Below, one piece after another: positions 6,558 through 57,510 of a DNA stretch of 64,000 nucleotides (positions within the stretch are counted from its first letter, which is position 1; each line of letters starts with the position of its first letter). The notes beneath the pieces were generated by a model that saw only the letters and a program-made list of their open reading frames with translations, was not told the origin of the DNA and did no database searches. This DNA comes from a virus, in IMG/VR virus record IMGVR_UViG_3300045988_155520, positions 192,001 to 256,000 of that record; one strand, 5' to 3'. A program made the translations under genes and the position numbers.

Positions 6558-7352
6558 ATGAACGTACAAAGTTATAATAATAATTTTAATCTTTCAGAAT
6601 TTACAAGTTTCTCTCATGATTCTAAGATTGTGGAATTATGTAATGAATTATATGAAGAGGCAAAAAAGAATGTATATAAATGTAGTGAACATCTATCAGT
6701 AACATCGGTAAATAAATATACACCTATTGTAGATATTGAAATTTGTAATAGTTTATCAATGAGTATATCTATTTCACCAGATAACAATGTTAATATACCA
6801 TATTATATATTTAGTGATATGTTTCAGATGGTTAGTGATACTAACCAGTTCAATAATCTTACTATAGTTTTATATCTTACTAATTTTGAGAAAGAAAATT
6901 TTATAGAGTGTGCTGGACAAAGTATAGACCAAATTCTAAGAATTTATAATACAATCAATAAGAAAATAGATTATGATAAGTGGAATGATATAACTTCCAT
7001 TGATTCAACGAAAGAAAATATAACATATCTTTCAAGACAAATACTTAGCTTTTTGGAAGAAAATGCACGTATCGTTTATTGTATTAATAATCGTCCTGAA
7101 ACTTTAAACTCACAAGAACTGGACAAGATAAAAGAATATATAGATTTATTTAAGTGTTGGTTGTATACAATAGATGTCACGAAAAAAGATGATAAAGAAT
7201 TTGAAAAGTTATTTACTGAAACATTTTTTTCCTCTTATAATAGTAAACTCTCTGATTTTAATAACTTAAGAAATACTTTAATATTTGCATTATTCGAAAG
7301 TTTAAAACTTTACTCTATACTTCTAAAATATTTTAACAATGGAACAATATAA
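6558..7352 (+). CDS. hypothetical protein, paralog of 5754-6527
   Basis: Same length class and shared motifs. Its 3' end overlaps the methyltransferase start by 14 nt. Confidence 0.75.
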   Translation: MNVQSYNNNFNLSEFTSFSHDSKIVELCNELYEEAKKNVYKCSEHLSVTSVNKYTPIVDIEICNSLSMSISISPDNNVNIPYYIFSDMFQMVSDTNQFNNLTIVLYLTNFEKENFIECAGQSIDQILRIYNTINKKIDYDKWNDITSIDSTKENITYLSRQILSFLEENARIVYCINNRPETLNSQELDKIKEYIDLFKCWLYTIDVTKKDDKEFEKLFTETFFSSYNSKLSDFNNLRNTLIFALFESLKLYSILLKYFNNGTI

Positions 7353-9392: not shown

Positions 9393-11456
9393 ATGAAACA
9401 AGAAAATAAAATATATAAAGAAATAGACGGTGTTAAATATGAAGTAAGAGATAATAAATACTTTTACGATGGTGACTTGAATATAGATAAAACAAATAAT
9501 GGTTATCTACCAGATAATTTAACTATATCAGGACATTTATATGCAGATAATTATGACAAAAATTTAGAACTCCCTAAAAACTTGACAGTTGGAGAAGATT
9601 TAAACTTGTATAATACACCAATAAAAACTTTACCGTCAGGTTTAATTGTAGGTGGAGATTTAGATGCAGACAATTGTACAATGCTGAAAGTTATACCTGA
9701 TTCATTAATTGTTGGAGGTAATTTAACTCTAAGCAATTGTACCAATCTCGTAGAACTATTAATTACTAAAGTTGGGGGGATATTAGATGTTGAAAACACA
9801 AAAATTAAAAAACTGCCAGATAATCTTATCGTTGGAGATTCCCTTTGGCTTGGATATACAAATATAACCGCATTACCAAATAAAATAACAGTAGGACGCT
9901 CCATTGATTTAAACGAAACCCCAATTGAATATATACCAAATGATATCGTTATTGGAGAAAATCTTATATTAAACAAATGTAAAAATATTTACACATTACC
10001 TGATAATATTACAATAGGTAATGACCTGTTTATTGAACGTTCAAATATTAAGACCTTACCACAAAATTTAACGGTGATAGGTGATTTGTTCTTATACTAT
10101 TACCAGAATATAAAAACTTTACCAGATAATATAATCGTACACGGAAATGTTTTTGCGGATGATTCAAGTATTAATAATACCTATGTTAATAAAATTATAC
10201 CCGAGAATGTAATCCATAAATTAAATGATTTACATAATATGGTGATTATATGGGAAAGAAATAATATAACATATATAAAAATAGGAAAACTCTTTACTGT
10301 AATTGATTCAAAATACCAAAACGTTTATCATGCACACGTACTCGGTGATGATACAAAACTATATATCTTAACTGACGGAGAAAATCATTGGGCATACGGA
10401 AAAACTAAAGAAGAAGCATGGATAAAACTTATGTACTCTATCAAAAGAGACCATATCATATACTATCATGATATGAGAATGAACACCAAAATTACAATAG
10501 AAGATGCTTCAAGTATGTTTAAAATAATAACAAATATATTTCATCAAGATATGAATAAAATTGATAACCCATTTAGATTTATACAACAAAAATATATTAC
10601 ATTAAATGATTTATATACACTGCTGAAACTACAATTCGGAAATGATGTGGTGGATAAATATATTAATGCCATAAATTCAACAGAACAATGCGATTGTACA
10701 GCGAAATATAACGATAATATTAAAACACTAACTGCATTTAAACCAATCATCATTACTCTTAATGGTGTGGGATTCTATAAAAAATTAAATCAAAAAATAC
10801 AAAAGCCATTCGATTCTAAGTTTAATAAACTTATGAATGAAACGCTTATATATCTTCTCGAAAATCTACCATATACAAAAGTTGGATATACATGGAGATA
10901 TGAAATGAATATCATTATTAATATTCCAACATATTTTAATACAAATGCACTGTGGAAAAGAGATGTATCAAAAATACAAAGTATTGTAGCATCAATGGCA
11001 AGCACATTCTTTACAAGAGAATATCATGAACTTTTCCAAACAGAAAATAATACAATACTCTTTGAATTTGATTGCCAAACATGGAATACACCAACAGTAG
11101 AAGATGCATATAATTGGTTAGTGTATAGACAAGAAGAATGTATTGATAATAGCATAAAACGTTTCGCAAGATTCTTCTTAACAATTGGAGAAATGAAAGG
11201 GAAGACATCAGAAGAACTTATCAAATATCTCATAGAACATTATAATACAAATTGGAATCATGAGAAAGCAGATAATAAGTTCGGAAGAATATTCATAAAA
11301 GAAAAAGTGATTCAATTCGATATAGATGAAAAAACAAATGAACAAAAAGTATATGGAAAAGAAGAATGGGAAAGATTATCAGTATTCTTCTTCACATTAA
11401 AAGATGAGAAAATAAAAGAGATTATTATCAACGAAATGAATAAAACAGATGAATAA
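9393..11456 (+). CDS. three-part protein: LPDNLTVGG-type repeats + shared central domain + C-terminal degenerate Thg1/TLP-like domain
   Basis: Repeats up to ~aa 260. Centre IWERNNITYIKIGKLFTVIDSKYQNVY...LTDGENHWAYGKTKEEA is shared with 11449-12648. C-terminus (about nt 10740-11310) has IIITLNGVGFYKKL, QKPFDSKFNKLMNE, LWKRDVSKIQSIVASMASTFFT, FDCQTWNTP...AYNWLVYRQEECIDNS. Confidence 0.7.
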   Translation: MKQENKIYKEIDGVKYEVRDNKYFYDGDLNIDKTNNGYLPDNLTISGHLYADNYDKNLELPKNLTVGEDLNLYNTPIKTLPSGLIVGGDLDADNCTMLKVIPDSLIVGGNLTLSNCTNLVELLITKVGGILDVENTKIKKLPDNLIVGDSLWLGYTNITALPNKITVGRSIDLNETPIEYIPNDIVIGENLILNKCKNIYTLPDNITIGNDLFIERSNIKTLPQNLTVIGDLFLYYYQNIKTLPDNIIVHGNVFADDSSINNTYVNKIIPENVIHKLNDLHNMVIIWERNNITYIKIGKLFTVIDSKYQNVYHAHVLGDDTKLYILTDGENHWAYGKTKEEAWIKLMYSIKRDHIIYYHDMRMNTKITIEDASSMFKIITNIFHQDMNKIDNPFRFIQQKYITLNDLYTLLKLQFGNDVVDKYINAINSTEQCDCTAKYNDNIKTLTAFKPIIITLNGVGFYKKLNQKIQKPFDSKFNKLMNETLIYLLENLPYTKVGYTWRYEMNIIINIPTYFNTNALWKRDVSKIQSIVASMASTFFTREYHELFQTENNTILFEFDCQTWNTPTVEDAYNWLVYRQEECIDNSIKRFARFFLTIGEMKGKTSEELIKYLIEHYNTNWNHEKADNKFGRIFIKEKVIQFDIDEKTNEQKVYGKEEWERLSVFFFTLKDEKIKEIIINEMNKTDE

Positions 11457-19788: not shown

Positions 19789-20502
19789 TTAAGAATATAA
19801 TTTTTCTACAAATTCTATTACGTTTTTATAGAAGTTATAATATTTCTCACCACGTAATTTTGCAAAATCTAAAATTTCGTCCTTTGTTCCGTTGATAAAG
19901 AGCGTGGACCATTGATTATTAGAACGTGTATAAACAAAAGTGTGACCACCTTCCCAATTTTCATGACCTACATAGTAGTCAGCAGGTGACATTATTTTTG
20001 CATCACTAATAAAGCGTACAAAATCGTATATATAAGCGTCACCACAAACAATTGCATTATCTCTCACCAAGCAAGTACCTATTAAATTTGCATTGTCACA
20101 AACTTGTGCATTATCTAATAGAAGGGAATTACCATACACTTGTGCGTTATCCTTAACAATAGAACAACCTTCCATACGTGCGTTATTAAACACACGTGCG
20201 TTATCTTTAACTTTAGAATGTCCTCTTACTTGTGCATTACCAAATACCACTGCATTGCCACAAACTTGTGCAAAGCCGTCTATTATACCATTACCAAATA
20301 CCTTTGCATTGTCGTAAACTTTTCCGTCCAAGAATATCCAACAATTGCCTTCTTGTGAAAGATTATCTTCTTTCTCAATAAAACCACCTATACTACCCTT
20401 CTTGACATTTCCAAAGTCTTTAAGAGCCTCAACTCGATAAAGTTTGTGTCCGTCAAATGTATAACTTAAATCTTTTCTGATTTTATATTTCTTTGTTTCC
20501 AT
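19789..20502 (-). CDS. beta-helix-like repeat protein (family BH, 1 of 4)
   Basis: N-terminus KYKIRKDLSYTFDGHKLYRVEALKDFGNVKKGSIGGFIEKEDNLSQEGNCW, then repeats VFGNAQVRGHSKVKDNARVFNNARMEG...DNAQVYGNS...DNAQVCDNA. Confidence 0.8.
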   Translation of the reverse strand: METKKYKIRKDLSYTFDGHKLYRVEALKDFGNVKKGSIGGFIEKEDNLSQEGNCWIFLDGKVYDNAKVFGNGIIDGFAQVCGNAVVFGNAQVRGHSKVKDNARVFNNARMEGCSIVKDNAQVYGNSLLLDNAQVCDNANLIGTCLVRDNAIVCGDAYIYDFVRFISDAKIMSPADYYVGHENWEGGHTFVYTRSNNQWSTLFINGTKDEILDFAKLRGEKYYNFYKNVIEFVEKLYS

Positions 20503-20647: not shown

Positions 20648-20761
20648 AAAATAAACTTATTCTAAAGCGTTCTAACCGCTTATTTTAGTGTTTATCTTAT
20701 AAGTTATCAAGTTTATATATCCAAGTCGTCAGAAACGAAATAAAGTGACAATAAATAGAAA

Positions 20762-20792
20762 AGTGGTACTACTTATCCCAAGCAATACCACT
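20762..20792 (-). terminator. terminator hairpin with conserved loop (copy 2 of 5)
   Basis: Stem AGTGGTA/TACCACT, loop CTACTTATCCCAAGCAA. Confidence 0.75.
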
Positions 20793-20825
20793 ATTAGCAT
20801 AAAAACAATTTATATTTAATAAGAT

Positions 20826-29384: not shown

Positions 29385-30119
29385 TTAACAACCTTTACAA
29401 CTTTCAATGTCGTTGTATGTTTCCTCTACATACTTAACAATTCGTTCATAGTTACGACCGCTTAACTCACTATCTTCATAAGCCTTCTTTATTAGTTCCT
29501 CGCTTGTTCCATAGAAACAACCTACTTTCCACATATTATTAGGACGTGTGTACGTGAAATAACGTCCGCTACTCCATATGTTCTTTCCAACATAATAATC
29601 AGACATTTCCTTAATTTCAACATTACCACATATCACTGCTTTACCTTTGACAGAAGTTTTAATAACTGAATTACCAAAAACAAGTACATTATCGGTAATT
29701 AAAGCATGACTATAAATCATGGCATTCTCATAAACTTGTGCATAATCATGAAGACTTGCATTTTCAAATATTTGGGCATTATCTGATAAAATAACATTAT
29801 CAAAAATCTTTGCATTGCCAAATACTTTTACATTGTCATAAACGGTCACATCATCAAAGATTTTTGCATTGTCATATATTTGTGCATAACCTGTAACAGT
29901 AGCGTTTCCACAAACACGTGCGTCACCATATACCATTGCCTCATGATAAATCCAACAATTACCTTTTTGAGAAAGGTTTTCCTCCTTCTCAACCCAACCG
30001 CCTAAGTCACCCTTATGAAGATTTCTAAAATCTCGTAATAGTTCAATACGATAGAGTTTGTGACCATTATATGACATTGTAAGGTCTTCTCTCAACTTAA
30101 ACTTCTTTTCTGTTTTCAT
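29385..30119 (-). CDS. beta-helix-like repeat protein (family BH, 2 of 4)
   Basis: Start moved to ATG 30119 (MKTEKKFKLREDL, CATAATTC context), parallel to the paralog starts. The track ORF extends 16 codons into the leader. Confidence 0.8.
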   Translation of the reverse strand: MKTEKKFKLREDLTMSYNGHKLYRIELLRDFRNLHKGDLGGWVEKEENLSQKGNCWIYHEAMVYGDARVCGNATVTGYAQIYDNAKIFDDVTVYDNVKVFGNAKIFDNVILSDNAQIFENASLHDYAQVYENAMIYSHALITDNVLVFGNSVIKTSVKGKAVICGNVEIKEMSDYYVGKNIWSSGRYFTYTRPNNMWKVGCFYGTSEELIKKAYEDSELSGRNYERIVKYVEETYNDIESCKGC

Positions 30120-31114: not shown

Positions 31115-31211
31115 ATTATCAAACATGAAATAAAAGCGTTTTAAGACGTTGAAATACATCTAAGTGAACAATTATACTAAACTATAGTTTAAAACGCTTA
31201 GAACGAAAGAA

Positions 31212-31249
31212 AAGCGGTATATAAGCAATTCTATGCAAATACACCGCTT
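31212..31249 (-). terminator. hairpin terminator
   Basis: AAGCGGT pairs with ACCGCTT (the stem extends with one mismatch) after the stop of 31264-31815. Confidence 0.7.
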
Positions 31250-31263
31250 AAACATTTATAGAA

Positions 31264-31815
31264 TTATGTTTGCCAAAAGCCGTCTTTTATAAGTTTATCT
31301 ATATCTAAATGAGTTGAAATCAACCTACATAACCAATCTTTTAAAAGTTTGTTATGTGGTTCCGTACTCTCCCCTTCGATTTGTAGAAAATACTCGTACC
31401 AAATTTCTTTACTGAAATAATGGTTTGTTATTTTAATAAGTTCGTCATTTGACAAGTTATGTAGTTTTTCTCTAAAACTAATTTCATACTTTGTGAAATA
31501 GTTTAATAACTTATCGGCAATTTCCAAGCTACATTCCTTTGTACCTTTAATTTTAAGGTAACAATAGTTTGTACTATCTACATCATCTTTTGAAAATGTA
31601 AGAGTATAGATACCTTCGTGAATTTGTAAATACCATGTAGCACTATATGGTTCACTATTTGCAGCCCTTCCCAATTGAAAAAAGAGTTCCATAGTAGGAT
31701 ATTCAATCTTTTTGACACAAAGCATATTAAAATTATTCAACTTGTCTTTTTCTATCTCGTCATGTTGAAGGGATATTGCATAAGTGCCTAAATGTAAACC
31801 GAAAATAGGTAACAT
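31264..31815 (-). CDS. hypothetical protein, paralog of 28722-29276
   Basis: See 28722-29276. Confidence 0.7.
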   Translation of the reverse strand: MLPIFGLHLGTYAISLQHDEIEKDKLNNFNMLCVKKIEYPTMELFFQLGRAANSEPYSATWYLQIHEGIYTLTFSKDDVDSTNYCYLKIKGTKECSLEIADKLLNYFTKYEISFREKLHNLSNDELIKITNHYFSKEIWYEYFLQIEGESTEPHNKLLKDWLCRLISTHLDIDKLIKDGFWQT

Positions 31816-31846
31816 AAATGTATGTTTTGAAAATTAATATTATTAT

Positions 31847-31877
31847 AAGTGCTATCAACATTCAATCAATAGCACTT
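31847..31877 (-). terminator. hairpin
   Basis: AAGTGCTAT pairs with ATAGCACTT after the stop of 31895-32776. Confidence 0.65.
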
Positions 31878-31894
31878 ATATTTTGTTATCTTAC

Positions 31895-32776
31895 TTACTT
31901 CTTTCTTACAAAATACTTTCCGTCGTAAAAGTCGTAAATATCATATGTAGGGTTTTTGCTACAGATATTTTTCAAAGGTTCATATAAGAACTCTGAAATT
32001 TCCTCATAACTTTCTTTGTCATTATCATATATCTCTTCCTTTTTGTAAGCACATTCCAAATCATACTTGCTTGTGTTGAGAAATGACATAGAACACTCGT
32101 CATTATCATAAATGATTTGAATGTTATTCTCATTGAGTTTATCCTTCATCTTCATAAACTCATCAACAAGTTCCTTCTGCTCGTCTGTTAGCGAAAGTGC
32201 CTTGAGAATACCCTCCTTAATAGTTTCAGTTCCGTTCTCTGATACTTTAATATCATTCCAAGCCAAAGCCTCCTCCCTTGTCTTGTAAATACCCTTGAAA
32301 GCGTTATCATACTTTCCATTCTCTCCATATATAATAGGTGCACCTATGTGTACCTCCTCAACATCACCATTTGCAAACTTGTAAGATACAAAATCATAGA
32401 AATTAGTACCGCCATTATTAACAAGTTGTGCAGGCAATTCACGTACCGATGTTAAACCATTCAAGAAGTCTACAAGTGACAACTCCTCCTCGATACGGAT
32501 ATCCTTCTCATAGTCCTCTACAGAATTGTAAGCGACAAAATTTTTCATTATCTTGCCTTCAAAAGGTTTCTGTGACACTTCAAAGAAAGTAACACCATTT
32601 TTATTTTTGGAAATTACTTTCTCCTCACTTCCCTTTGATGTGACCATGTAAAGAATAACACCGCTTAATGTATCAACACTATGAAACTTGATAGAACACA
32701 ATGTAAGAACATTGTTAATCATTACATACGCATCAACATTTGAAGATGTAATCACACGAATAGTTAAATTTTCCAT
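31895..32776 (-). CDS. hypothetical protein
   Basis: 293-aa ORF with CATAATTCTTAATTTG context. Confidence 0.8.
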   Translation of the reverse strand: MENLTIRVITSSNVDAYVMINNVLTLCSIKFHSVDTLSGVILYMVTSKGSEEKVISKNKNGVTFFEVSQKPFEGKIMKNFVAYNSVEDYEKDIRIEEELSLVDFLNGLTSVRELPAQLVNNGGTNFYDFVSYKFANGDVEEVHIGAPIIYGENGKYDNAFKGIYKTREEALAWNDIKVSENGTETIKEGILKALSLTDEQKELVDEFMKMKDKLNENNIQIIYDNDECSMSFLNTSKYDLECAYKKEEIYDNDKESYEEISEFLYEPLKNICSKNPTYDIYDFYDGKYFVRKK

Positions 32777-32812
32777 AATTCTTAATTTGTTTGTTTATTA
32801 CTGAATTGTGAG

Positions 32813-32847
32813 TGCAAAGGTAAGCAATTATTTTTATACTACCAAAT
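32813..32847 (-). promoter_or_regulatory. Bacteroidota-type promoter
   Basis: rc -7 TGCAAAG at 32813-32819 and rc -33 ACCAAA at 32841-32846. Confidence 0.75.
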
Positions 32848-32870
32848 ATTTCCTTACTTTAAACTTTTAT

Positions 32871-33512
32871 TTAACACTTATCTTCCAAACAATCTATTAG
32901 GTGTTGTAATAAATTGTATGTTCCCTCTATACTAAGCGCACCTAAAGGGAAAGTCTGTGTATTTGCTTTCAACATAACACGTTTATCTTCCACGCTTATG
33001 CTTTTAAAACTTTCTTCATTTGTAGCTATGCAAGTGTGGAACATATCGCAATCTTCAAAGATAAAAGTTCTCTCGTCCTCGTCTGAAAGAAGTTCGATAA
33101 ACTTTTTTTCAATATCCTTACGTAACTTGTAAATTTTATCATCAAAATACAAGAAATTTTGACAATAATACTCAATAGCAAGATACACTGCGTTATCGGT
33201 ATGGTAATAACAATCATTGCGACTAATATATCCTTCTTTGTCTACAAATACATGAGAAGACAAATCGGTAGTATTAACTACCTTGATGTATATATCGTCC
33301 TTAGTTAATAAATCGCCACGAACTAACTTAATATCAGTTACCTCTGTGTCGTAAACTTCTCCCTGCTTATTTGCAAGAAGAACGCATGGTGTATCGGTAT
33401 CTCTACCATAATTTGCATTATCTGTAATTGATATGTGGGTAATTTCATTATCCAACATCAACTTAATAGCTGTTTCTCTGTTTCTTTCTAAAACAGAATT
33501 TAATGATTCCAT
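32871..33512 (-). CDS. hypothetical protein (N-terminus resembles 37521-38171)
   Basis: 213-aa ORF. SVLERNRETAIKLML versus NLVERKRNEVISMLK. Confidence 0.75.
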   Translation of the reverse strand: MESLNSVLERNRETAIKLMLDNEITHISITDNANYGRDTDTPCVLLANKQGEVYDTEVTDIKLVRGDLLTKDDIYIKVVNTTDLSSHVFVDKEGYISRNDCYYHTDNAVYLAIEYYCQNFLYFDDKIYKLRKDIEKKFIELLSDEDERTFIFEDCDMFHTCIATNEESFKSISVEDKRVMLKANTQTFPLGALSIEGTYNLLQHLIDCLEDKC

Positions 33513-33556
33513 AACTCTAAATGTTTTGTTTAATTGTTTGTTTATTGATTTACGTT

Positions 33557-33591
33557 TGCAAAGATACTAACTTAATTGCAAACTGCCAAAC
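33557..33591 (-). promoter_or_regulatory. Bacteroidota-type promoter
   Basis: rc -7 TGCAAAG at 33557-33563 and rc -33 GCCAAA at 33585-33590. Confidence 0.75.
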
Positions 33592-33634
33592 ATATTTCTG
33601 ATTTTAACACTTATTTAACATATCACTTTATAGG

Positions 33635-33672
33635 TTATATATTATATACGCACACACAATATATTATATAAT
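33635..33672. repeat. intergenic-block core, orientation B (degenerate)
   Basis: TTATATATTATATACGCACACACAATATATTATATAAT, followed by ACGTTTTAAGACGT at 33683-33696. Confidence 0.65.
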
Positions 33673-33775
33673 CTCAAATAAGACGTTTTAAGACGTGAGA
33701 ATTACTCACGACTTGTAATTTATCATCGTATAACTTATAAAGTATTAGAATGAAAATAAACCACACATAAAAGGA

Positions 33776-33810
33776 AATCTATCACTACTTATCACAAGCA
33801 ATGATAGATT
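33776..33810 (-). terminator. terminator hairpin with conserved loop (copy 3 of 5)
   Basis: Stem AATCTATCA/TGATAGATT, loop CTACTTATCACAAGCAA. Confidence 0.8.
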
Positions 33811-33836
33811 AATAAAAAAAACAAACTAAATTATAA

Positions 33837-33844
33837 CCTATTCC
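33837..33844. repeat. 8-bp direct repeat CCTATTCC (left copy) flanking the orphan scaffold
   Basis: The identical octamer recurs at 33982-33989. Confidence 0.8.
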
Positions 33845-33981
33845 GATAGTTGTTCGTTAACAAATCCTAACAAAAACGTCAGCTTTGTTACTAATCATCT
33901 GTAAGCATTTCAACCTACAGCGGAGCTATCTTTCATCGCCCGTATTAAGATGTTACGGGCACCATTAAGGTCTCTGTGAAC
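33845..33981 (-). ncRNA. orphan omega-RNA-like scaffold: ORF-less copy of the TnpB 3' end / right end
   Basis: Hand alignment to 53652-53788 gives ~14 mismatches in ~137 nt with no gaps. Only the last 24 TnpB codons (VHRDLNGARNILIRAMKDSSAVG-stop) remain, preceded by an in-frame TGA. All four predicted stems are retained. Confidence 0.65.
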
Positions 33982-33989
33982 CCTATTCC
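33982..33989. repeat. 8-bp direct repeat CCTATTCC (right copy)
   Basis: Identical to 33837-33844. Contains the stop codon of the 31-aa ORF 33983-34078. Confidence 0.8.
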
Positions 33990-34078
33990 TTCATATTATC
34001 TATTTTATCCTTCCACTCATCGTAACTATGTGACGTTATAATCATGATTATAACTACCACCAAAATATAAATCATCAT
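33983..34078 (-). CDS. small hydrophobic peptide (31 aa)
   Basis: ATG 34078-34076 shares its A with the TGA stop of 34078-34440 (TGATG coupling). MMIYILVVVIIMIITSHSYDEWKDKIDNMKE. Below the track cutoff. Confidence 0.45.
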   Translation of the reverse strand: MMIYILVVVIIMIITSHSYDEWKDKIDNMKE

Positions 34079-34440
34079 CATTCTTTTGTCCGTGCATAAG
34101 TTCCTACAAGTTCGTCCAAAATAGCTATCCAATCTCCATAGTGAAAATCAGAACAATATTTTAAATCTTCTGTGAACTCTTCATTGTTAGCAATGTAAGT
34201 AATATCAATTGTTTCCGTTTCGTCATTTACAGACAATTCTTTTACATTGATATCCAACAATGAGTTATCCGACCACCCATCAAAATCAGGTGCCAAAGTT
34301 GAATAGATAACTTCCACTTTACCCCCACATGATATAACAATATCACGCATAACATTCAATACTTCCTCCGCACTCTTTTCTAAATTCTCTCGTGCTGACA
34401 TTGAAAGTTCCGAAAACTTTAATTTAAATGATTTATCCAT
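34078..34440 (-). CDS. hypothetical acidic protein
   Basis: 120-aa ORF with CATAATTCTTTAT context. Confidence 0.75.
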   Translation of the reverse strand: MDKSFKLKFSELSMSARENLEKSAEEVLNVMRDIVISCGGKVEVIYSTLAPDFDGWSDNSLLDINVKELSVNDETETIDITYIANNEEFTEDLKYCSDFHYGDWIAILDELVGTYARTKE

Positions 34441-34468
34441 AATTCTTTATATTTAATTTGTTTACGCT

Positions 34469-34503
34469 TGCAAAGTTAAGAAAATAAATTGAACTATCCA
34501 AAT
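34469..34503 (-). promoter_or_regulatory. Bacteroidota-type promoter
   Basis: rc -7 TGCAAAG at 34469-34475 and rc -33 TCCAAA at 34497-34502. Confidence 0.75.
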
Positions 34504-34541
34504 ATTTTATACTAATAAAAGTTAATAGTCTATTAAATTAA

Positions 34542-34580
34542 AAGTAGTATGTCAACCATATTAGTTAAAACACACTACTT
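34542..34580 (-). terminator. hairpin terminator
   Basis: AAGTAGT pairs with ACTACTT (the stem extends with one mismatch) after the stop of 34597-34926. Confidence 0.7.
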
Positions 34581-34596
34581 GAAAAAAAATATTGAA

Positions 34597-34926
34597 CTAT
34601 TTTTTGAAACTTTCTCCGATTGCATTAATAACATCATCACTTACATTTAATTCAGATGATATATATAGACGCTTATATCTCTCATTGTCATTCATAACAA
34701 ACATAAGTTTGATGATTTTTCCTTTATAATCTAAATACCAAATATGAGGTGACAAAACAGATTTACTATCGGTTTTTAATATAGTAGATACGTCCTTGCG
34801 TGTTAAGTCCACGTCAATAATAGTCCTATCAAAAAGAGTTTTAAAAAACTCACTAATCTTATTAGATTCATTTTTTGAATAAGACTTTAAATCTTTTATC
34901 TTATTATTTAAATTAATTGCATTCAT
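34597..34926 (-). CDS. hypothetical protein, paralog of 30301-30654
   Basis: See 30301-30654. Confidence 0.75.
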   Translation of the reverse strand: MNAINLNNKIKDLKSYSKNESNKISEFFKTLFDRTIIDVDLTRKDVSTILKTDSKSVLSPHIWYLDYKGKIIKLMFVMNDNERYKRLYISSELNVSDDVINAIGESFKK

Positions 34927-34954
34927 AATTTCTATTTGTTTATTGATTTACGAC

Positions 34955-34989
34955 TACAAAGATAATTATTTAATTTGATATATCCAAAT
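34955..34989 (-). promoter_or_regulatory. Bacteroidota-type promoter
   Basis: rc -7 TACAAAG at 34955-34961 and rc -33 TCCAAA at 34983-34988. Confidence 0.65.
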
Positions 34990-35125
34990 AGATTTTATAT
35001 TTTAATATTAATTTAACACTTGATAGAATATTTGCTTTGTAAGACGTTAAAACAAACTATCTATATAAGTTATCAGATAAAACAAAAGAACTCTTTAGAA
35101 ACGAAATAAAGTGCATAAAACAAAA

Positions 35126-35160
35126 AATCTACCATGACTTATCACAAGCAATGGTAGATT
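35126..35160 (-). terminator. terminator hairpin with conserved loop (copy 4 of 5)
   Basis: Stem AATCTACCAT/ATGGTAGATT, loop GACTTATCACAAGCA. Confidence 0.8.
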
Positions 35161-35212
35161 ATGAAAAACATTGACTAACTAACCAACTAAATTATTTTCT
35201 ATTGTATTTTTT

Positions 35213-38653: not shown

Positions 38654-39398
38654 GACTCTCTATGTTATTATACATTTCTTCTACATATTTAATAACTCTT
38701 TCGTACTCTTGTCCGCTTAACTTACTATCTTCATAAGCCTTCTTGATAAGTTCCTCACTTGTACCATAGAAACAACCTACCTTCCACTTCTTATTTGAAC
38801 GTGTATAAACAAAGTAACGACCACTACTCCATGTATTCTTTCCAACATAGTAGTCAGTAATTGATTTTATTTCAGCGTCTCCACATATATGAATGTTCCC
38901 GTATATTTCAGTGTAACCATGAACTTTAACATTATCATAAATTTGTACATCATTGAATATATAAGCATTTCCATAAATATATGCACATCCAAATACCTTT
39001 ACATTGTTATAAATTTGTGCGTTATTAGAAATTCTTGCATTATCAAAAATGTGTGCATTATCATATACTGAAACATCATTTTGTAAAATTGCGCAATCTT
39101 GTATTTTTGAATTACCTCCTACTTCTGCATTGTCAGTAACAATAGCATATCCAAATACCTTCGCATTGCCACAAACTATAGCTTTTCCACTGACATGAGC
39201 ATTCTGAAATACCATTGCTTCATCATACACCCAACATGTTCCTCTTTGAGATAGATTTTCTTCTTTCTCAATCCATCCCCCTAAATCACCCTTCTTGATT
39301 TGATAAAAATCTCTTAGTGCTTCTATTCTATAAAGGGTAATGCCATTGAACTCCTTTGAAATATCAGTTCTAATTTTATACTTGTTTATCGCATTCAT
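38646..39398 (-). CDS. beta-helix-like repeat protein (family BH, 3 of 4)
   Basis: KYKIRTDISKEFNGITLYRIEALRDFYQIKKGDLGGWIEKEENLSQRGTCW plus GNAxV/DNAxI repeats. C-terminus DYYVGKNTWSSGRYFVYTRSNKKWKVGCFYGTSEELIKKAYEDS is nearly identical to that of 29385-30119. Confidence 0.8.
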   Translation of the reverse strand: MNAINKYKIRTDISKEFNGITLYRIEALRDFYQIKKGDLGGWIEKEENLSQRGTCWVYDEAMVFQNAHVSGKAIVCGNAKVFGYAIVTDNAEVGGNSKIQDCAILQNDVSVYDNAHIFDNARISNNAQIYNNVKVFGCAYIYGNAYIFNDVQIYDNVKVHGYTEIYGNIHICGDAEIKSITDYYVGKNTWSSGRYFVYTRSNKKWKVGCFYGTSEELIKKAYEDSKLSGQEYERVIKYVEEMYNNIESHT

Positions 39399-39407
39399 GT
39401 TCTATTT

Positions 39408-39423
39408 GTACTTATTTAAGTAT
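39408..39423. promoter_or_regulatory. 16-bp palindrome copy (GTACTTATTTAAGTAT)
   Basis: Fills the 30-nt gap between 39429-39872 and 38646-39398, 9 nt upstream of ATG 39398. Confidence 0.7.
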
Positions 39424-39428
39424 GGTTA

Positions 39429-39872
39429 TTATACTAATTCAGTATGTTCTAAAATATCATTTCCTCCAACTCTTGCAAAACCTGCAATTTTAGAATGACC
39501 TAAAACTTTAGCATTATGACATACCCATGCATCTCCGTACACTTCTGCGTAATCAAATACTTCTGCGTTATCACTTATATACGCATTTTCACATAGATTA
39601 GCATTACCATATACTCGGACCTCATTAAACAATCTTGCTTTATCACGAACTTTAGCATTGTCAAATACTTTGGCATTCTCACGGACGAAGGCATTACCAT
39701 ATACCCAACAGTCGCCTTCTTGAGATAGATTTTCCCCTTTCTCAATCCAACCACCAATATCTCCCTTTTTTACATCACTAAAGTCCTTTAACGCTTCAAT
39801 ACGATAAAGGGTAATACCACCATCAAGTTTTAATGACATATCTTCTCTAATTCTGTATTTCTTTTCTTCCAT
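39429..39872 (-). CDS. beta-helix-like repeat protein, C-terminally short (family BH, 4 of 4)
   Basis: Start taken at MEEKKYRIREDM (ATG 39872), parallel to the paralogs. Lacks the DYYVGKN...YTR C-terminal domain. Confidence 0.7.
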   Translation of the reverse strand: MEEKKYRIREDMSLKLDGGITLYRIEALKDFSDVKKGDIGGWIEKGENLSQEGDCWVYGNAFVRENAKVFDNAKVRDKARLFNEVRVYGNANLCENAYISDNAEVFDYAEVYGDAWVCHNAKVLGHSKIAGFARVGGNDILEHTELV

Positions 39873-53493: not shown

Positions 53494-53514
53494 ATCATGT
53501 ATATTTTTATTTGG

Positions 53515-53550
53515 TGCAAAGATAGCAAAAAATACTTTACCATACAAATA
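53515..53550 (-). promoter_or_regulatory. Bacteroidota-type promoter for operon 53493-50139
   Basis: rc -7 TGCAAAG at 53515-53521 and rc -33 TACAAA at 53544-53549. Confidence 0.7.
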
Positions 53551-53640
53551 ATAAAAGTTAAAAAAACAAAAGAGAGAAGCGACATTATTCATCACTTCTC
53601 TCTTTAATTTATAAAAAATATTTTTTGAATAACATGTTTC

Positions 53641-53651
53641 GTGAATACGCC
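53641..53651. repeat. direct repeat GTGAATACGCC flanking the TnpB element (right-end side)
   Basis: Matches GTTAATACGCC at 55151-55161 (10 of 11). Confidence 0.8.
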
Positions 53652-53800
53652 GATAGTTGTTCGTTAACAAATCCTAACAATAGTGTCAGCCTTGTTACTA
53701 ATCATCCACAGGTATCTCAACCTGCAGCGGAGCTATCTCTCATCGCCCGTATTAAGATGTTACGGGCACCATTAAGGTCTCTATGGACCTTAATTCCATC
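53652..53800 (-). ncRNA. omega-RNA (reRNA) scaffold candidate overlapping the tnpB 3' end
   Basis: Four hairpins on the reverse strand: GCCCGTA/TACGGGC (53745-53767), CTGCAGGT/ACCTGTGG, TAACAA/TTGTTA, TTGTT/AACAA. Ends at the element boundary. Confidence 0.6.
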
Positions 53801-55066
53801 ATACATAAACCACTCTTTTCCACCCAAGTTAGTCATTAACTCACCAGTAAAGCTATTGGTCTTGCTTGTGTATGACTCATTTTGTTCTACATACGCCACA
53901 CCGCACTCCTTGCACTTTTGCTTCAATCTCTCCTTAAACTCAAAGAATCGAAGGGATAGCATAGAGCGTACAATACTCTTACGTAGCTTCCTACCTTTCT
54001 TCGTCATTCCTTTTACCTCGAAAGGAGGGAATACTACGACAGAAAAATTGTGCACAAGGTAGTTTATACACTGCCAGTGCAATTCATCAACCAAGTCTTG
54101 TATTCTGTGGTACGTCCTATTAAGCGTGCGCTTCAGTTTACCTTTCTTCTTCTTATCCTTTGTTAATGCCAACCTGCTTAGCAGGTGGTCACGCTTAAGG
54201 TTAAGTGTTAGTATTCTGTCAAAGGCGTGTACACCAAGCCATCCAAATCGTCCATCTTCACTGAAGTAGGTAAGGAAATTCCTAACCCCAGGGTCTAAGG
54301 CAACAATACCACCTTGGCTTTCGGTCGGCATGGTTGTTATCTTCTGAGGTACGGAAAGATACCATCTTCCGTGGTCATAAATGAGACGACAATCACAGAT
54401 GTCATTTTTAAAAAACTCTCTTTCAGAGAACTTGAGTTTACCACTGATAGTGCGGTAAATTCCACTTGTTGACACAGCGGATTTAGGAATGTAACAACTC
54501 TGAACAGGGTTTTTACGAGTCTTATAATGCAACTTAAATGGTTTACCAGACTTCTTTGTTTTATTGCAGTTTGTCCACCATGAAGTGTAAGCGTCCTTTA
54601 CTGCAATCTTCTTTATCTGATATGGCACAGATTTAATATAGCTTTCAGTAAATTCAGCTAAGATTGTAGTACTCATTTTCATCCACCCTTTAATTTCAAT
54701 TTCTTTGCCGTTAAAGTGTTTAATGCAAGTATTGTACACCTTTCTTTCAACGCCAAACCACTGCTTAAAGAGTTGCTTTTGCTGTTGTGATGGATAAATC
54801 CTTATCCGTCTTGCCTTCGTCACTATAGTTCCTGGGTCTATGCATTCTTTATGTAAATGTATAAAGAGTTGCAAATAAGTATTCTGTGGGTTATTATTCT
54901 TAGATGTGACTTGTTTTGTAGAAAACCATGGTTTAACATTCATTGCACAGGAAGTGTTATCACATTCTGACATAGCACATTCTATGTCTTTGTGTGACAA
55001 CAAGTGTGAACTAATGCTTTTACATAAATCATCATAAAAAGTCTTATGGTCTTCCTGTACAGTCAT
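53717..55066 (-). CDS. tnpB: TnpB-like RNA-guided nuclease (IS605 OrfB family)
   Basis: RIRIYPSQQQKQLFKQWFGVERKVYN; GIVALDPGVRNFLT (RuvC-I D); VVFPPFEVKGMTKK (RuvC-II region); ESYTSKT...VHRDLNGARNILIR (RuvC-III D). Confidence 0.85.
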   Translation of the reverse strand: MTVQEDHKTFYDDLCKSISSHLLSHKDIECAMSECDNTSCAMNVKPWFSTKQVTSKNNNPQNTYLQLFIHLHKECIDPGTIVTKARRIRIYPSQQQKQLFKQWFGVERKVYNTCIKHFNGKEIEIKGWMKMSTTILAEFTESYIKSVPYQIKKIAVKDAYTSWWTNCNKTKKSGKPFKLHYKTRKNPVQSCYIPKSAVSTSGIYRTISGKLKFSEREFFKNDICDCRLIYDHGRWYLSVPQKITTMPTESQGGIVALDPGVRNFLTYFSEDGRFGWLGVHAFDRILTLNLKRDHLLSRLALTKDKKKKGKLKRTLNRTYHRIQDLVDELHWQCINYLVHNFSVVVFPPFEVKGMTKKGRKLRKSIVRSMLSLRFFEFKERLKQKCKECGVAYVEQNESYTSKTNSFTGELMTNLGGKEWFMYDGIKVHRDLNGARNILIRAMRDSSAAG

Positions 55067-55150
55067 TATTTTTTATTTCTCTATTTAAAATATAATAAAA
55101 CCATAGGCTTTATCAAGTTATTATAAAAAATTATTAGTAACTGAAGAATA

Positions 55151-55161
55151 GTTAATACGCC
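55151..55161. repeat. direct repeat GTTAATACGCC flanking the TnpB element (left-end side)
   Basis: See 53641-53651. Confidence 0.8.
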
Positions 55162-57076: not shown

Positions 57077-57102
57077 TATGTGATTTTAACAACTTTCTTA
57101 GT

Positions 57103-57489
57103 TTAATTAGAGGTTGCTCTCTTCATTCTGCAACTCAAAGTGCCTAAATAGTTATGCATGGCTTGAAGTTGTTCATTCAATAGGTTCCTATCAGTTTCTT
57201 CTAAAGAAGCAAATGAATCTGAATCTATGAATTTTTCCAATTTTTCAATACGTTCATCCAATTCATCCAGTTCTAATTTCATTCTATCAATGAATGAATC
57301 AGCTAATGCGAAGTTCTCTTCAAAAAATGATTTTGGAGTCCAAGTAAGCTCACCATAATGATTTTCCACTAAATAACCATCCATTTCTTCATCACAATCC
57401 ATGTTGAATGGAAGTACGCCATCGGGTACATCTTTTAATTTCATAGGCTCAGCCATACAACAAGTTGTCTTTGATAAATATTTCTTCAT
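57103..57489 (-). CDS. hypothetical protein with C-terminal coiled-coil; paralog of 59537-59866
   Basis: KKYLSKTTCCMAEPMKLKD...LDERIEKLEKFIDSDSF versus KKVSQTTYCMDEAMKSND...INERLEKLEKFIDPDSL. Confidence 0.75.
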   Translation of the reverse strand: MKKYLSKTTCCMAEPMKLKDVPDGVLPFNMDCDEEMDGYLVENHYGELTWTPKSFFEENFALADSFIDRMKLELDELDERIEKLEKFIDSDSFASLEETDRNLLNEQLQAMHNYLGTLSCRMKRATSN

Positions 57490-57510
57490 AACATATATTT
57501 TTTAATACTC

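What the first reader, a model, noticed from the sequence alone, without database searches (positions are those of the whole stretch)
33837..33989. ORF-less second copy of the TnpB omega-RNA scaffold, 20 kb from the nuclease gene, with compensatory stem changes and its own flanking direct repeat
Seen directly: 33845-33981 aligns without gaps to 53652-53788, the last 24 codons of tnpB plus the structured right end. By hand I count about 14 mismatches in ~137 nt. Upstream of the retained VHRDLNGARNILIRAMKDSSAVG-stop codons there is an in-frame TGA and no ATG, so no nuclease can be made here. Seven of the mismatches cluster in one hairpin, and they preserve it. On the reverse strand the full-length copy reads CUGCAGGU-ugagau-ACCUGUGG and this copy reads CUGUAGGU-ugaaau-GCUUACAG, 8 bp in both. 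One pair is a C:G to U:A double change; the others are G:C to G:U transitions. The other three stems (GCCCGUA/UACGGGC, UAACAA/UUGUUA, UUGUU/AACAA) are unchanged or lengthened. The fragment is bracketed by an exact 8-bp direct repeat, CCTATTCC, at 33837-33844 and 33982-33989. It sits in a transcribed position, just 3' of the stop of a 31-aa ORF and 5' of the terminator at 33776-33810. Inference: this is a stand-alone guide-RNA gene that could load the TnpB encoded at 53717-55066 with a second guide. The reverse-strand sequence after the scaffold is GGAATAGGTTATAATTTAGT, versus GGCGTATTCACGAAACATGT at the full-length copy. That would be one nuclease with two dispersed guides in a phage. Alternatively it is a 5'-truncated homing or repair product. 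Caveat: the sequence just beyond the right repeat (CTATTCCTTCATA) weakly resembles the corresponding tnpB sequence (TTAATTCCATCATA), so part of the repeat may be residual homology.
Basis: partly seen in the sequence, partly recalled or inferred. Interest (0 to 1): 0.85.

Follow-up and report, generated by a model that had tools for sequence, protein, structure and literature searches.

The report
Truncated TnpB guide-RNA end in phage
A 137-base piece of a phage's RNA-guided nuclease element, holding only the guide-RNA scaffold and no nuclease gene, was inserted at a second site in this oral jumbo phage; it is most likely an aborted copying product that could still make a second guide, not a proven guide gene.

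Summary
Window 33843-33985 aligns without gaps to 53650-53792, with 14 mismatches in the core 139 nt. There is no ORF, and an exact 8-bp repeat flanks the fragment. Relatives change the interpretation. The scaffold belongs to a TnpB family found only in large oral-type phages: about 20 full-length copies, no TnpA, and no match in 185,579 bacterial genomes. Its RNA structure is well supported (45 pairs, 99.2% paired). The "compensatory" A/B differences are ordinary family polymorphism; full-length elements carry near-B hairpins, and B is no closer to A than to any other copy. At least ten related phages have a clean empty site, so B is a lineage-specific insertion and the 8-bp repeat is a real target duplication. 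The full-length element A has the same signature: an exact 8-bp duplication and the same right terminus. Three further independent ORF-less right-end fragments exist, all 140 nt or shorter, and two have 5' joins in patches of target/tnpB similarity. In the one lineage with measurable post-insertion change, both stem substitutions break pairs. Best reading: a 5'-truncated homing or repair product in a transcribed 3'UTR. It is structurally intact and may supply a guide in trans, but selection for that is not shown.

The parts
33845..33981 (-). Inserted 137-nt right-end fragment (copy B). It holds the last 24 codons of a tnpB (33910-33981, stop at 33910-33912) plus 65 nt of non-coding guide-RNA scaffold, ending ...GTTAACGAACAACTATC at 33845.
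   Evidence: Ungapped alignment to copy A. Covariance model score 164.5 bits over all 147 positions. Absent from the orthologous site in at least 10 related phages. No ORF.
33837..33844 (-). Downstream copy of the 8-bp target duplication (GGAATAGG in RNA sense). Its first GG is the IS607-type right-flanking dinucleotide. It also forms the first 8 nt of the would-be guide.
   Evidence: The empty site in relatives has one copy only.
33982..33989 (-). Upstream copy of the 8-bp target duplication (GGAATAGG). It contains the TAG stop of the small ORF and contributes the 5' arm of scaffold hairpin H1.
33825..33844 (-). Would-be guide, the 20 nt after ...CTATC: GGAATAGGTTATAATTTAGT. If the GG belongs to the scaffold, as in IS607-type RNAs, the guide is AATAGGTTATAATTTAGTTT (33823-33842).
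   Evidence: Position is by analogy with copy A and with the sharp loss of similarity after ...CTATCG(G) in all family members. It matches the empty allele of L030, L031 and L043 with 1 mismatch.
33776..33810 (-). Intrinsic terminator-like hairpin with a T-rich tail, 35 nt downstream of the scaffold end. It is ancestral to the site and present in relatives.
   Evidence: 16-pair stem; 2 terminators found against 0.2 expected. Conserved in L030-L044. Member of repeat family D18.
33983..34081 (-). Small hydrophobic ORF (MMMIYILVVVIIMIITSHSYDEWKDKIDNMKE*) immediately upstream. Its start overlaps the stop of the 120-aa gene. It is conserved in relatives that lack the insert.
34078..34440 (-). 120-aa gene of unknown function that heads the transcription unit containing copy B.
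   Evidence: Orthologues at 83-91% identity in 15 phage contigs. No Pfam or PHROG hit.
34451..34525 (-). Promoter-like repeat upstream of that gene. In minus-strand sense it reads TTTGG...TTAACTTTGCA, resembling the Bacteroidota-type -33/-7 TAnnTTTG motif.
   Evidence: Repeat families D2-D10. The promoter assignment is inference from the known Bacteroidota consensus.
53652..55153 (-). Full-length element (copy A): left end AACTATTCTTCAGTTACTAATA at 55132-55153, tnpB at 53717-55066, and guide-RNA scaffold down to 53652.
   Evidence: Precisely absent from 12 related phages.
53644..53651 (-). Downstream copy of copy A's exact 8-bp target duplication (GGCGTATT), which is also the start of A's guide.
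55154..55161 (-). Upstream copy of copy A's 8-bp target duplication (GGCGTATT), preceded by TTGA.
   Evidence: The empty site AAAATTGAGGCGTATTCACG occurs as a single copy in L045-L056.
53717..55066 (-). tnpB, 449 aa, the only nuclease gene of this family in the window. It is the candidate partner for a trans-acting guide.
   Evidence: Pfam Cas12f1-like_TNB and HTH_OrfB_IS605. Closest solved structure is mimivirus L79 Fanzor2, 9b0l. RuvC-type motifs are invariant in 16 copies.
53569..53605 (-). Terminator-like hairpin 46 nt downstream of copy A's scaffold. The layout matches that at copy B.
   Evidence: sequence AAAGAGAGAAG...CTTCTCTCTTT followed by a T run.

Best explanation
Copy B is a 5'-truncated insertion of the right end of a TnpB element. 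The family is IS607/Fanzor2-like, lacks TnpA, and is known only from large oral-type phages.

Shown:
- B arrived as a short DNA patch at a previously empty intergenic site, just after a stop codon and 35 nt before a terminator.
- It came from a family member other than copy A.
- Its right junction is the exact element terminus (...CTATC|GG), and 8 bp of target are duplicated on either side.
- Its left junction lies where the target (ATATGAAGGAAT-AGG) happens to resemble tnpB (GTATGATGGAATTAAGG).

Inferred mechanism:
- A break at or near this site was repaired by copying from an element, starting at the right-end/flank junction and running leftwards into the element.
- Synthesis stopped after about 140 nt.
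- The new strand re-annealed to the other broken end through that chance similarity. The first 8 target bases were thereby used at both junctions and so duplicated.
- This is an aborted or ectopic homing event.

Consequence (inferred):
- The fragment is transcribed in sense as part of the 3'UTR of the 120-aa/small-ORF unit.
- It keeps 44 of 45 scaffold base pairs, so the phage's own TnpB could bind it and use the adjacent 16-20 nt as a second guide. That guide is directed at the uninterrupted allele of this site in competing phages.
- The insertion also separates the TAM from the target, making this allele immune to such cleavage.
- There is no evidence that the guide function is maintained by selection.
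For: - Empty site: at least 10 of 15 related phages read ATATGGAAGAATAG|TTATAATTTAGTTTG with nothing inserted. No relative has a full-length element there.
- The same insertion signature in the full-length element A: an exact 8-bp duplication (GGCGTATT), the identical terminus ...CAACTATC, and a single-copy empty site in 12 relatives.
- A donor other than A: B is 125/139 identical to A but 128/139 to L012 and L022. B-type hairpin arms occur in full-length elements L022, L080, L081 and L082.
- Recurrence and bias: three more independent ORF-less right-end fragments exist. They are L025x (also seen as L085), L019x and L078. All retain 140 nt or less, and none retains a longer part of the 1.5-kb element.
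- 5' joins in similarity patches: B at TATGA.GGAAT, and L078 at AACAAT.. against AACATATTG...
- Relaxed constraint after insertion: L025x and L085 differ at 6/147 positions against 4/600 in the flanks (P=0.0055). Both stem substitutions break a pair.
- Transcribed position and intact partner: terminator, promoter-like repeat, conserved catalytic motifs.
- Structural integrity of B: 164.5 bits against 163.7-182.4 for full-length copies. Only pair 5/26 is broken.
- Persistence: the same insertion is found in an independent assembly, L079.
Against: - No donor with an element at exactly this site was found, so the right-junction homology that true homing needs is not demonstrated. An ectopic event would have had only GG or GGAAT(A) to prime on.
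- B and the independent L025x begin within about 2 nt of each other, at the foot of hairpin H1. Purely random abortion does not predict that. It could instead point to selection for a complete scaffold or to a defined intermediate.
- An 8-bp duplication could also come from a transposase acting in trans.
- Only 3 of 11 full-length elements show a flanking repeat. L029 has a clean empty site with no duplication. The mechanism is therefore not uniform across the family.
- The evidence for relaxed constraint comes from another ORF-less lineage and from only two stem substitutions. For B itself, the window and L079 are too similar to test (1/153 against 8/421, P=0.46).
Confidence: 0.6

Rival explanations
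1. B is a working, selected stand-alone guide-RNA gene. It is transcribed from the upstream unit and processed, then loaded onto the TnpB encoded at 53717-55066. It directs cleavage of the uninterrupted allele (AAGG + AATAGGTTATAATTTAG...) in co-infecting relatives. This gives the phage a second dispersed guide for homing or competitor exclusion, in the manner of a nuclease-free selfish element.
For: - The scaffold is complete, with 44/45 pairs and 164.5 bits.
- It lies in sense orientation between a stop codon and a terminator, the same layout as copy A.
- An intact, conserved nuclease is in the same genome.
- Two independent ORF-less copies, B and L025x, start at the same point, the foot of H1.
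- L019x keeps helices H3-H5, has a C-G to U-A double change at an otherwise invariant pair, and sits after a tRNA array where processing would release it.
- B's guide matches the empty allele of three relatives with 1 mismatch.
- B is retained in two assemblies with different neighbouring gene content.
- The idea of ORF-less elements supplying guide RNAs in trans is already accepted for PATEs (PMC10055086).
Against: - The compensatory changes cited for it are inherited polymorphism.
- There is no detectable constraint on B.
- The only ORF-less lineage with measurable post-insertion change shows two pair-breaking substitutions and faster change than its flanks.
- L078 has a degenerate terminus.
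- Only 4 insertion events are ORF-less against about 20 full-length.
- In the sampled relatives the target has either a 1-nt deletion in the seed, or ACG where the family's left flanks have AGG.
Confidence: 0.2
2. B is what remains of a full-length element that once sat at this site and lost its left end and most of tnpB by a simple internal deletion.
For: - The target's left flank (TATGAAGGAAT) resembles tnpB sequence (TATGATGGAAT) just 5' of the breakpoint. That similarity could have mediated a deletion between the flank and the gene.
- Degraded IS copies are common.
Against: - The fragment is bracketed by two exact copies of an 8-bp target sequence that is single-copy in the empty sites. 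A deletion starting in the left flank would have removed or altered the upstream copy.
- A deletion inside the element would have left some left-end sequence, and none is present.
- No relative carries a full-length element at this site.
- Four independent fragments all retain 140 nt or less, which random deletions do not predict.
Confidence: 0.1
3. B and A were both inserted by a transposase or recombinase supplied in trans that makes 8-bp staggered cuts, or that recombines through an 8-bp core. B would have been mobilised through an internal pseudo-left-end.
For: - Both A and B have exact 8-bp duplications and the same terminus.
- GG lies at both junctions of nearly all elements, as at an IS607-type crossover (PMC10711439).
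- The left end AACT(G/A)TTCTTCAG and B's start GTTCACAG share GTTC..CAG.
- TnpB relatives captured by TSD-forming transposons are known (PMC10711439, PMC13565253).
Against: - No recombinase motif occurs in the window.
- No TnpA lies next to any of about 20 elements.
- The family is absent from bacterial genomes that could supply one.
- Most full-length copies lack a flanking repeat, and L029 has none at a clean empty site.
- 5' ends differ among fragments.
- The sequence at B's left junction is the target's version of the similar patch, not the donor's. That fits annealing better than site-specific exchange.
Confidence: 0.1

Closest known systems
IS607-family TnpB elements and their right-end (omega) RNAs, including viral Fanzor2
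   Same: - A RuvC nuclease with an HTH_OrfB_IS605 N-terminal domain and a TNB domain.
- The closest solved structure is mimivirus Fanzor2 L79.
- The guide RNA overlaps the 3' end of the gene and runs to the element terminus.
- Insertion after (T)GAGG or AAGG, a terminus of ...CGG, and GG at both junctions. These match the published IS607 pattern (PMC10711439, PMC13565253).
   Different: - No serine-recombinase TnpA lies in or near any copy.
- The zinc-finger cysteines are absent (SKTNSFTGEL).
- There is no Rfam RAGATH-18 similarity.
- Two insertions in this phage carry exact 8-bp target duplications, which IS607 does not make.
- The family was seen only in phage contigs.
PATEs, the ORF-less IS200/IS605 derivatives that encode guide RNAs used in trans
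   Same: Both have no nuclease gene but a retained right end with a guide-RNA scaffold, so any activity would need a TnpB encoded elsewhere (PMC10055086).
   Different: PATEs keep both the left and right ends and are mobilised by TnpA. B has no left end, has a target duplication, and shows a junction mediated by microhomology.
Illegitimate or incomplete double-strand-break repair products of homing elements in phages (intron and free-standing homing-endonuclease systems), and resistance alleles in gene drives
   Same: All three show presence/absence polymorphism at exact sites among related phages, joins at short similarities, duplication of recipient sequence next to the insert, and loss of the cleavage target once the site is interrupted. 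The concept of canonical (non-restorative) homing by TnpB elements into co-resident DNA is discussed in PMC13565253. The T4 illegitimate-repair precedent is recalled from my own knowledge and was not checked here.
   Different: Here the endonuclease is RNA-guided, and the truncated product itself carries the guide scaffold. The scar could therefore still programme the nuclease.
5'-truncated insertions of non-LTR retrotransposons
   Same: An exact 3' end, a variable 5' truncation, a flanking target duplication, and microhomology at the 5' join.
   Different: No reverse transcriptase or poly(A)-like tail is involved. The full-length element, including sequence upstream of its gene, shows the same duplication. 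TnpB cuts distal to the TAM and so would not provide a primer at the right place. This is a resemblance only.

Membership tests
TnpB / omega-RNA (OMEGA) system | A TnpB-type RuvC nuclease gene with conserved catalytic residues | tested here: met
   This applies to copy A. Pfam Cas12f1-like_TNB (E 3e-11) and HTH_OrfB_IS605 (E 4e-10), with a weak OrfB_IS605 match. PDB 9b0l at E 1.6e-20. D/E/D-type motifs are invariant in 16 copies. Copy B has no nuclease gene.
TnpB / omega-RNA (OMEGA) system | A structured RNA scaffold that overlaps the 3' end of tnpB and ends at the element's right terminus, followed by a variable flank that serves as the guide | tested here: met
   There are 21 scaffolds with 45 pairs in 5 helices. 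99.2% of cells are paired, against 31-46% when the partners are slid. Five pairs show double changes. Similarity stops at ...CTATCG(G) in all copies. B scores 164.5 bits over the whole model.
TnpB / omega-RNA (OMEGA) system | The RNA is expressed, bound by TnpB, and directs TAM-dependent DNA cleavage | not testable with these tools
   No expression or biochemical data are available. Only position argues for transcription: sense orientation between a stop codon and a terminator.
IS607 family | A serine-recombinase TnpA in the element or available in trans | tested here: not met
   No gene lies between the left end and tnpB in about 14 elements examined. No serine-recombinase catalytic motif occurs in any window ORF of 90 aa or more. 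The remaining ~186 kb of the genome was not examined.
IS607 family | Insertion at a GG dinucleotide, a terminus ending in GG, and a G-rich TAM (GAGGG or AGGAG) | tested here: met
   Left flanks read TTGA|GG, GTGA|GG, ATGA|GG, CCAA|GG and, for B, TGAA|GG. The right end reads ...CTATC|GG in most copies and GT/GT in L002. Criteria are from PMC13565253 and PMC10711439.
IS607 family | No target-site duplication beyond the crossover dinucleotide | tested here: not met
   A has GGCGTATT twice and B has GGAATAGG twice. Each is single-copy in the empty sites. L020 has 7/8 and L002 6/8. The other 8 full-length elements do conform.
IS607 family | A RAGATH-18-type guide RNA | tested here: not met
   No Rfam match at the gathering threshold over the whole window, or at E<=10 on either scaffold.
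IS200/IS605 family | A Y1 (HUH) TnpA, insertion 3' of an AT-rich TAM, subterminal hairpins at both ends, and no duplication | tested here: not met
   There is no TnpA. Flanks are G-rich and 8-bp duplications occur. The closest solved structure is an IS607-derived Fanzor2, not ISDra2 TnpB.
PATE (ORF-less IS200/IS605 derivative) | Both the left end and the right end retained around a short non-coding core | tested here: not met
   B begins inside tnpB codon 426. It has no left-end sequence (AACTGTTCTTCAGTTACTAATA) and no left-end hairpin.

The most novel reading that the evidence does not exclude
These jumbo phages use TnpB as an RNA-guided homing and competition nuclease that spreads without any transposase. 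Under this reading, short right-end fragments such as B are not debris. They are nuclease-free "guide-only" elements that reprogramme the resident TnpB against additional alleles of rival phages. That would amount to a dispersed multi-guide system built by recombination, a possible natural intermediate between single-guide transposon nucleases and arrayed guides.
Probability: 0.15. Interest if true: 0.85.

Novelty: new variant of a known kind. Interest (0 to 1): 0.5.

Why it matters
TnpB elements are thought to move by TnpA and to use their guide only to restore or home the element. Here a TnpA-less family is confined to phages and shows clean presence/absence at many sites. It also shows target duplications that neither IS605 nor IS607 makes, and a set of short right-end-only insertions.

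If these are products of break repair, they record TnpB-driven spread to new sites by recombination alone. They also record how such spread fails. Those failures leave scars that are immune to re-cutting yet still carry a guide scaffold. That makes the question of whether a single TnpB can serve several dispersed guides directly testable in a natural system. It also gives a concrete, small (147-nt) scaffold and nuclease pair to test.

Tried and rejected
- Known RNA families: Rfam over the whole window at gathering threshold, and both scaffolds at E<=10, gave nothing relevant and no RAGATH-18.
- GenBank phages: megablast of 33000-35000 gave no match. The TnpB protein found only ~32%-identical "transposase" genes in Vibrio and other phages.
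- Exact 36-nt core in IMG/VR: no match because the pattern was too strict. It was replaced by degenerate patterns.
- Bacterial and archaeal genomes: both the protein-based and the scaffold-pattern scans found nothing. No host copy or TnpA association could therefore be studied.
- Constraint test on B using the second strain, L079: a first Fisher test looked highly significant. It was rejected because nearly all flank differences lie beyond a mosaic breakpoint near 33685. Within the co-linear block the result is 1/153 against 8/421, P=0.46.
- A general target duplication in the family: the permutation test is driven by A, L020 and L002 (P=0.024 with A, 0.11 without). L029 has none at a clean empty site. 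The claim that all elements make 8-bp duplications was rejected.
- L026 as an empty site for L019x: rejected as not clean, because the adjacent tRNA gene also differs.
- RNA-templated (retro) origin of B: considered because the fragment equals a plausible mature scaffold. Set aside because the full-length element shows the same duplication and because TnpB cuts far from where a primer would be needed. This rests on inference only.
- Very short matches to the right terminus in L086, L089, L093 and L094 (19-26 nt): not pursued. About 10 chance matches are expected for that pattern.
Full report
**1. The observation**

- Window 33843-33981 aligns without gaps to 53650-53788 (offset 19807) with exactly 14 mismatches in 139 nt. 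Similarity continues to 33985.
- A 39-nt core occurs exactly twice in the window, against none expected.
- A covariance model of the scaffold, run with all filters off, finds only these two copies. They score 178.6 and 164.5 bits, and the next hit scores 13.6.
- In the tnpB frame the second copy (B) reads VHRDLNGARNILIRAMKDSSAVG*, preceded by stop codons and no ATG.
- Seven mismatches lie in one hairpin that stays 8 bp in both copies.
- CCTATTCC is present at 33837-33844 and 33982-33989.
- A 16-pair terminator-like hairpin lies at 33810->33776.
- The 449-aa ORF at 53717-55066 carries the Pfam TnpB domains.

**2. Context**

- All genes in this region are on the minus strand. Most have their own copy of a promoter-like repeat. 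Read on the minus strand it is TTTGG...TAnnTTTGCA, which resembles the Bacteroidota -33/-7 consensus (the promoter reading is my inference).
- The window's exact 120-aa protein and its exact TnpB are both encoded about 19.8 kb apart on a 250.7-kb contig from a human oral metagenome. Relatives are IMG/VR viral contigs of up to 222 kb. This is an accessory-gene region of an oral jumbo phage.

**3. The element family**

- TnpB relatives at 79-100% identity occur in many of these phage contigs, with up to three full-length copies per contig.
- No element has a TnpA. No serine-recombinase motif occurs in the window.
- Neither the protein nor the scaffold occurs in 185,579 species-representative bacterial and archaeal genomes.
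- The closest solved structure is mimivirus L79, a Fanzor2.
- The elements insert after (T)GAGG or AAGG and end ...CTATCGG, with GG at both junctions. That is the published IS607 pattern (PMC10711439, PMC13565253).
- The putative RuvC motifs are invariant across 16 distinct intact copies, so the nuclease appears active and under selection.
- The RNA scaffold matches nothing in Rfam, including RAGATH-18, even at E<=10.

**4. The RNA structure, and what the "compensatory" changes mean**

- Twenty-one distinct scaffolds align without gaps over 147 columns.
- The consensus has 45 pairs in five helices, including a long-range helix that pairs GAUAG in the coding part with the terminal CUAUC.
- 99.2% of cells are paired, against 31-46% when partners are slid by 1-3 columns. 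No shuffle out of 500 reaches the observed covariation score. The family scaffold is therefore a real structured RNA.
- The hairpin that differs between A and B is the family's variable helix. It has double changes at 4 of its pairs and no broken pair in any of the 21 sequences.
- B's 5' arm, CUGUAGGU, occurs in full-length copies L001, L020, L022, L080, L081 and L082. Full-length L080 and L082 have ACUUACAG, one transition from B's GCUUACAG.
- B is 125/139 identical to A but 128/139 to L012 and L022.
- The A/B differences are therefore polymorphism inherited from different full-length lineages. They show that the family RNA is constrained. They do not show that the ORF-less copy has been.

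**5. B is an insertion, and the repeat is a true target duplication**

- Fifteen related phages carry the orthologue of the 120-aa gene. In at least ten, the site reads ...GATAATATGGAAGAATAG|TTATAATTTAGTTTG.... The small ORF, its stop codon and the terminator are all present, and nothing lies between them.
- The window reads ...ATATGAA GGAATAGG [137 nt] GGAATAGG TTATAATTTAG.
- No relative has a full-length element at this site.
It belongs to the target and is not residual element sequence.

**6. The full-length element has the same signature**

- Twelve relatives carry the orthologue of the 555-aa upstream gene and read AAAATTGA GGCGTATT CACGAAGC once.
- The window reads TTGA GGCGTATT [AACTATTC...tnpB...CAACTATC] GGCGTATT CACG, with the duplication at 55154-55161 and 53644-53651.
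- A and B therefore share an exact 8-bp duplication, the same terminus, and a position after a stop codon and 35-46 nt before a terminator.
- Published descriptions of both IS200/IS605 and IS607 state that they make no target duplication (PMC13565253).
- The feature is not universal in this family. L020 (7/8) and L002 (6/8) show it. Eight other full-length copies do not exceed chance. L029 has a clean empty site with no duplication. I cannot fully explain this.

**7. Other ORF-less fragments**

Screening the loci with the model, plus a relaxed scan anchored on the terminus, found three more independent right-end-only insertions.

- **L025x.** It begins at ...AAGGTCCACAG, within about 2 nt of B's start. 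It is present in a second contig, L085.
- **L019x.** It begins about 45 nt further in. It lies directly after the last gene of a five-tRNA array and before a terminator hairpin.
- **L078.** It is fused to the 3' end of a gene whose orthologue in the window ends differently. Its right terminus is degenerate.

All four fragments retain 140 nt or less of a 1.5-kb element. About 20 other scaffolds have a full-length gene. In B and L078 the 5' join lies where the target resembles the tnpB 3' region.

**8. Is there selection on the ORF-less copies?**

- **B.** A second assembly (L079, an 83.6-kb contig) has the same insertion, differing at one base. That base is the window-private G->A at 33932. The co-linear flanks differ at 8/421 positions, so nothing can be concluded (P=0.46). 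An apparently strong signal was an artefact of a mosaic breakpoint near 33685.
- **L025x and L085.** The insert differs at 6/147 positions against 4/600 in the flanks (P=0.0055). Four differences cluster in one loop and match variants seen in full-length copies, which suggests gene conversion. The two stem substitutions each break a pair.
- This is a small sample. It points to relaxed constraint and not to a maintained RNA.

**9. Mechanism**

Shown:
- B is a lineage-specific insertion.
- It has an exact right terminus and an 8-bp duplication of target.
- Its left join lies in a chance similarity patch.
- Its donor was not A.
- Similar short fragments recur in the family.

Inferred:
- A break at the site was repaired by copying from an element, starting at the right-end/flank junction.
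- Synthesis aborted after about 140 nt.
- The nascent strand annealed to the other broken end through the similarity GGAAT-AGG / GGAATTAAGG.
- The first eight target bases were thereby used at both junctions and so duplicated.
- The analogous annealing for A would be between the target GGCGTATT and the usual left-end start GG(G)TATT.

This is an aborted or ectopic homing event. It explains the exact 3' end, the bias towards short fragments, the microhomology and the duplication. It needs no transposase.

Its weak points are three. No donor at the same site was found. B and L025x share a 5' boundary. Duplications are not uniform across the family.

**10. What B may do now**

- B lies in sense orientation in a transcription unit and keeps 44 of 45 pairs. 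An apparently active TnpB is encoded 20 kb away. Production of a second guide is therefore plausible.
- Its 20 nt after the GG match the empty allele of three relatives with one mismatch. Those alleles have ACG where this family's left flanks have AGG. The other relatives have a 1-nt deletion in the seed.
- By contrast, A's guide matches its empty alleles with two distal mismatches behind the same TTGAGG.
- The insertion also splits the TAM from the target, so the B allele would be immune to cutting at this site.
- The concept of ORF-less elements supplying guide RNAs to a TnpB encoded elsewhere is already in the literature for PATEs (PMC10055086). B differs in lacking a left end.

**11. Verdict**

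B is best described as a 5'-truncated, recombination-derived insertion of a TnpB right end in a phage-restricted, TnpA-less, IS607/Fanzor2-like family. It is a new variant of a known kind.

Interest is moderate. The individual fragment is probably a by-product. The family's transposase-free spread, its non-canonical 8-bp duplications and its recurrent guide-only scars are worth an experiment.

Noticed in passing
window 14135-61872, e.g. 33534-33620, 34451-34525, 34932-35018, 53513-53566: More than 25 copies of a 75-95-nt intergenic repeat. Read on the minus strand it is TTTGG..N..TTATCTTTGCA, which resembles the Bacteroidota -33/-7 (TAnnTTTG) promoter consensus. Nearly every small gene has its own copy, which hints at a Bacteroidota host.
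   Followed up: partly
window 20729-20802, 33745-33818, 35095-35168: A repeated terminator-like hairpin family (TCTATCA..GCTTGTGATAAGT..TGATAGA) follows several small genes. The copy at 33776-33810 is the terminator downstream of copy B.
   Followed up: partly
window 20036-20313, 29686-29927, 38929-39716: Coding repeats with an 18-nt (6-codon) period occur in three or four paralogous genes about 9.3-9.6 kb apart (repeat families D1, D6, D11, D14). This suggests a duplicated gene module encoding hexapeptide-type repeat proteins.
   Followed up: no
window 9393-11456 and 7339-8595: A 687-aa protein has a C-terminal match to tRNA-His guanylyltransferase (phrog_4717, E 7e-29). It sits next to a DNA methyltransferase (phrog_18146).
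   Followed up: no
L006:1168-1314 and L006:4276-4422 (contig IMGVR_UViG_3300008147_000007, about 55.9 and 59.0 kb): Two full-length tnpB elements lie about 3.1 kb apart in the same orientation. The second has an altered, longer N-terminus (530 aa). The same contig also holds a third full-length copy and the ORF-less L025x.
   Followed up: partly
L025:6961-6975 and L085:9471-9485: The right flank of the ORF-less L025x/L085 fragment (GGGATTAAACATATT) resembles the usual left-end start (GGGT.ATTAAC...). It looks as if a right end were joined to a decayed left end, which may be a trace of a circular or tandem junction.
   Followed up: no
L019:6871-7301 then 7316-7405: A phage array of five tRNA genes (Gln, Asn, Ser, Ser, Met) is followed at once by T9, an ORF-less scaffold fragment and a terminator hairpin. 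The related contig L026 has a different last tRNA and no fragment.
   Followed up: partly
L015:1-80 and L018:14553-14635 (the two ends of contig IMGVR_UViG_3300008734_000012): Both ends of this 117-kb contig stop inside a scaffold copy, in opposite orientations. The assembly probably broke at this repeat, so copy numbers per genome are lower bounds.
   Followed up: no
window about 33685, and 31150-33540 compared with L079: There is a mosaic breakpoint. L079 is nearly identical to the window from 34259 to about 33686, then diverges sharply. It lacks the window's two genes at 31895-33512 and rejoins at about 31149.
   Followed up: partly
L084:578-964 (window about 57100-57500, minus strand): A 128-aa protein two genes upstream of tnpB has a precomputed Pfam hit to PF21825 (Sequestin).
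   Followed up: no
window 55095-55113: The left end holds a conserved hairpin (ATAAAGCC-TAT-GGTTTTAT; AAAGCCGTAGGCTTT in most relatives) about 30 nt upstream of the tnpB start. It may be a promoter-region or end-recognition structure.
   Followed up: no
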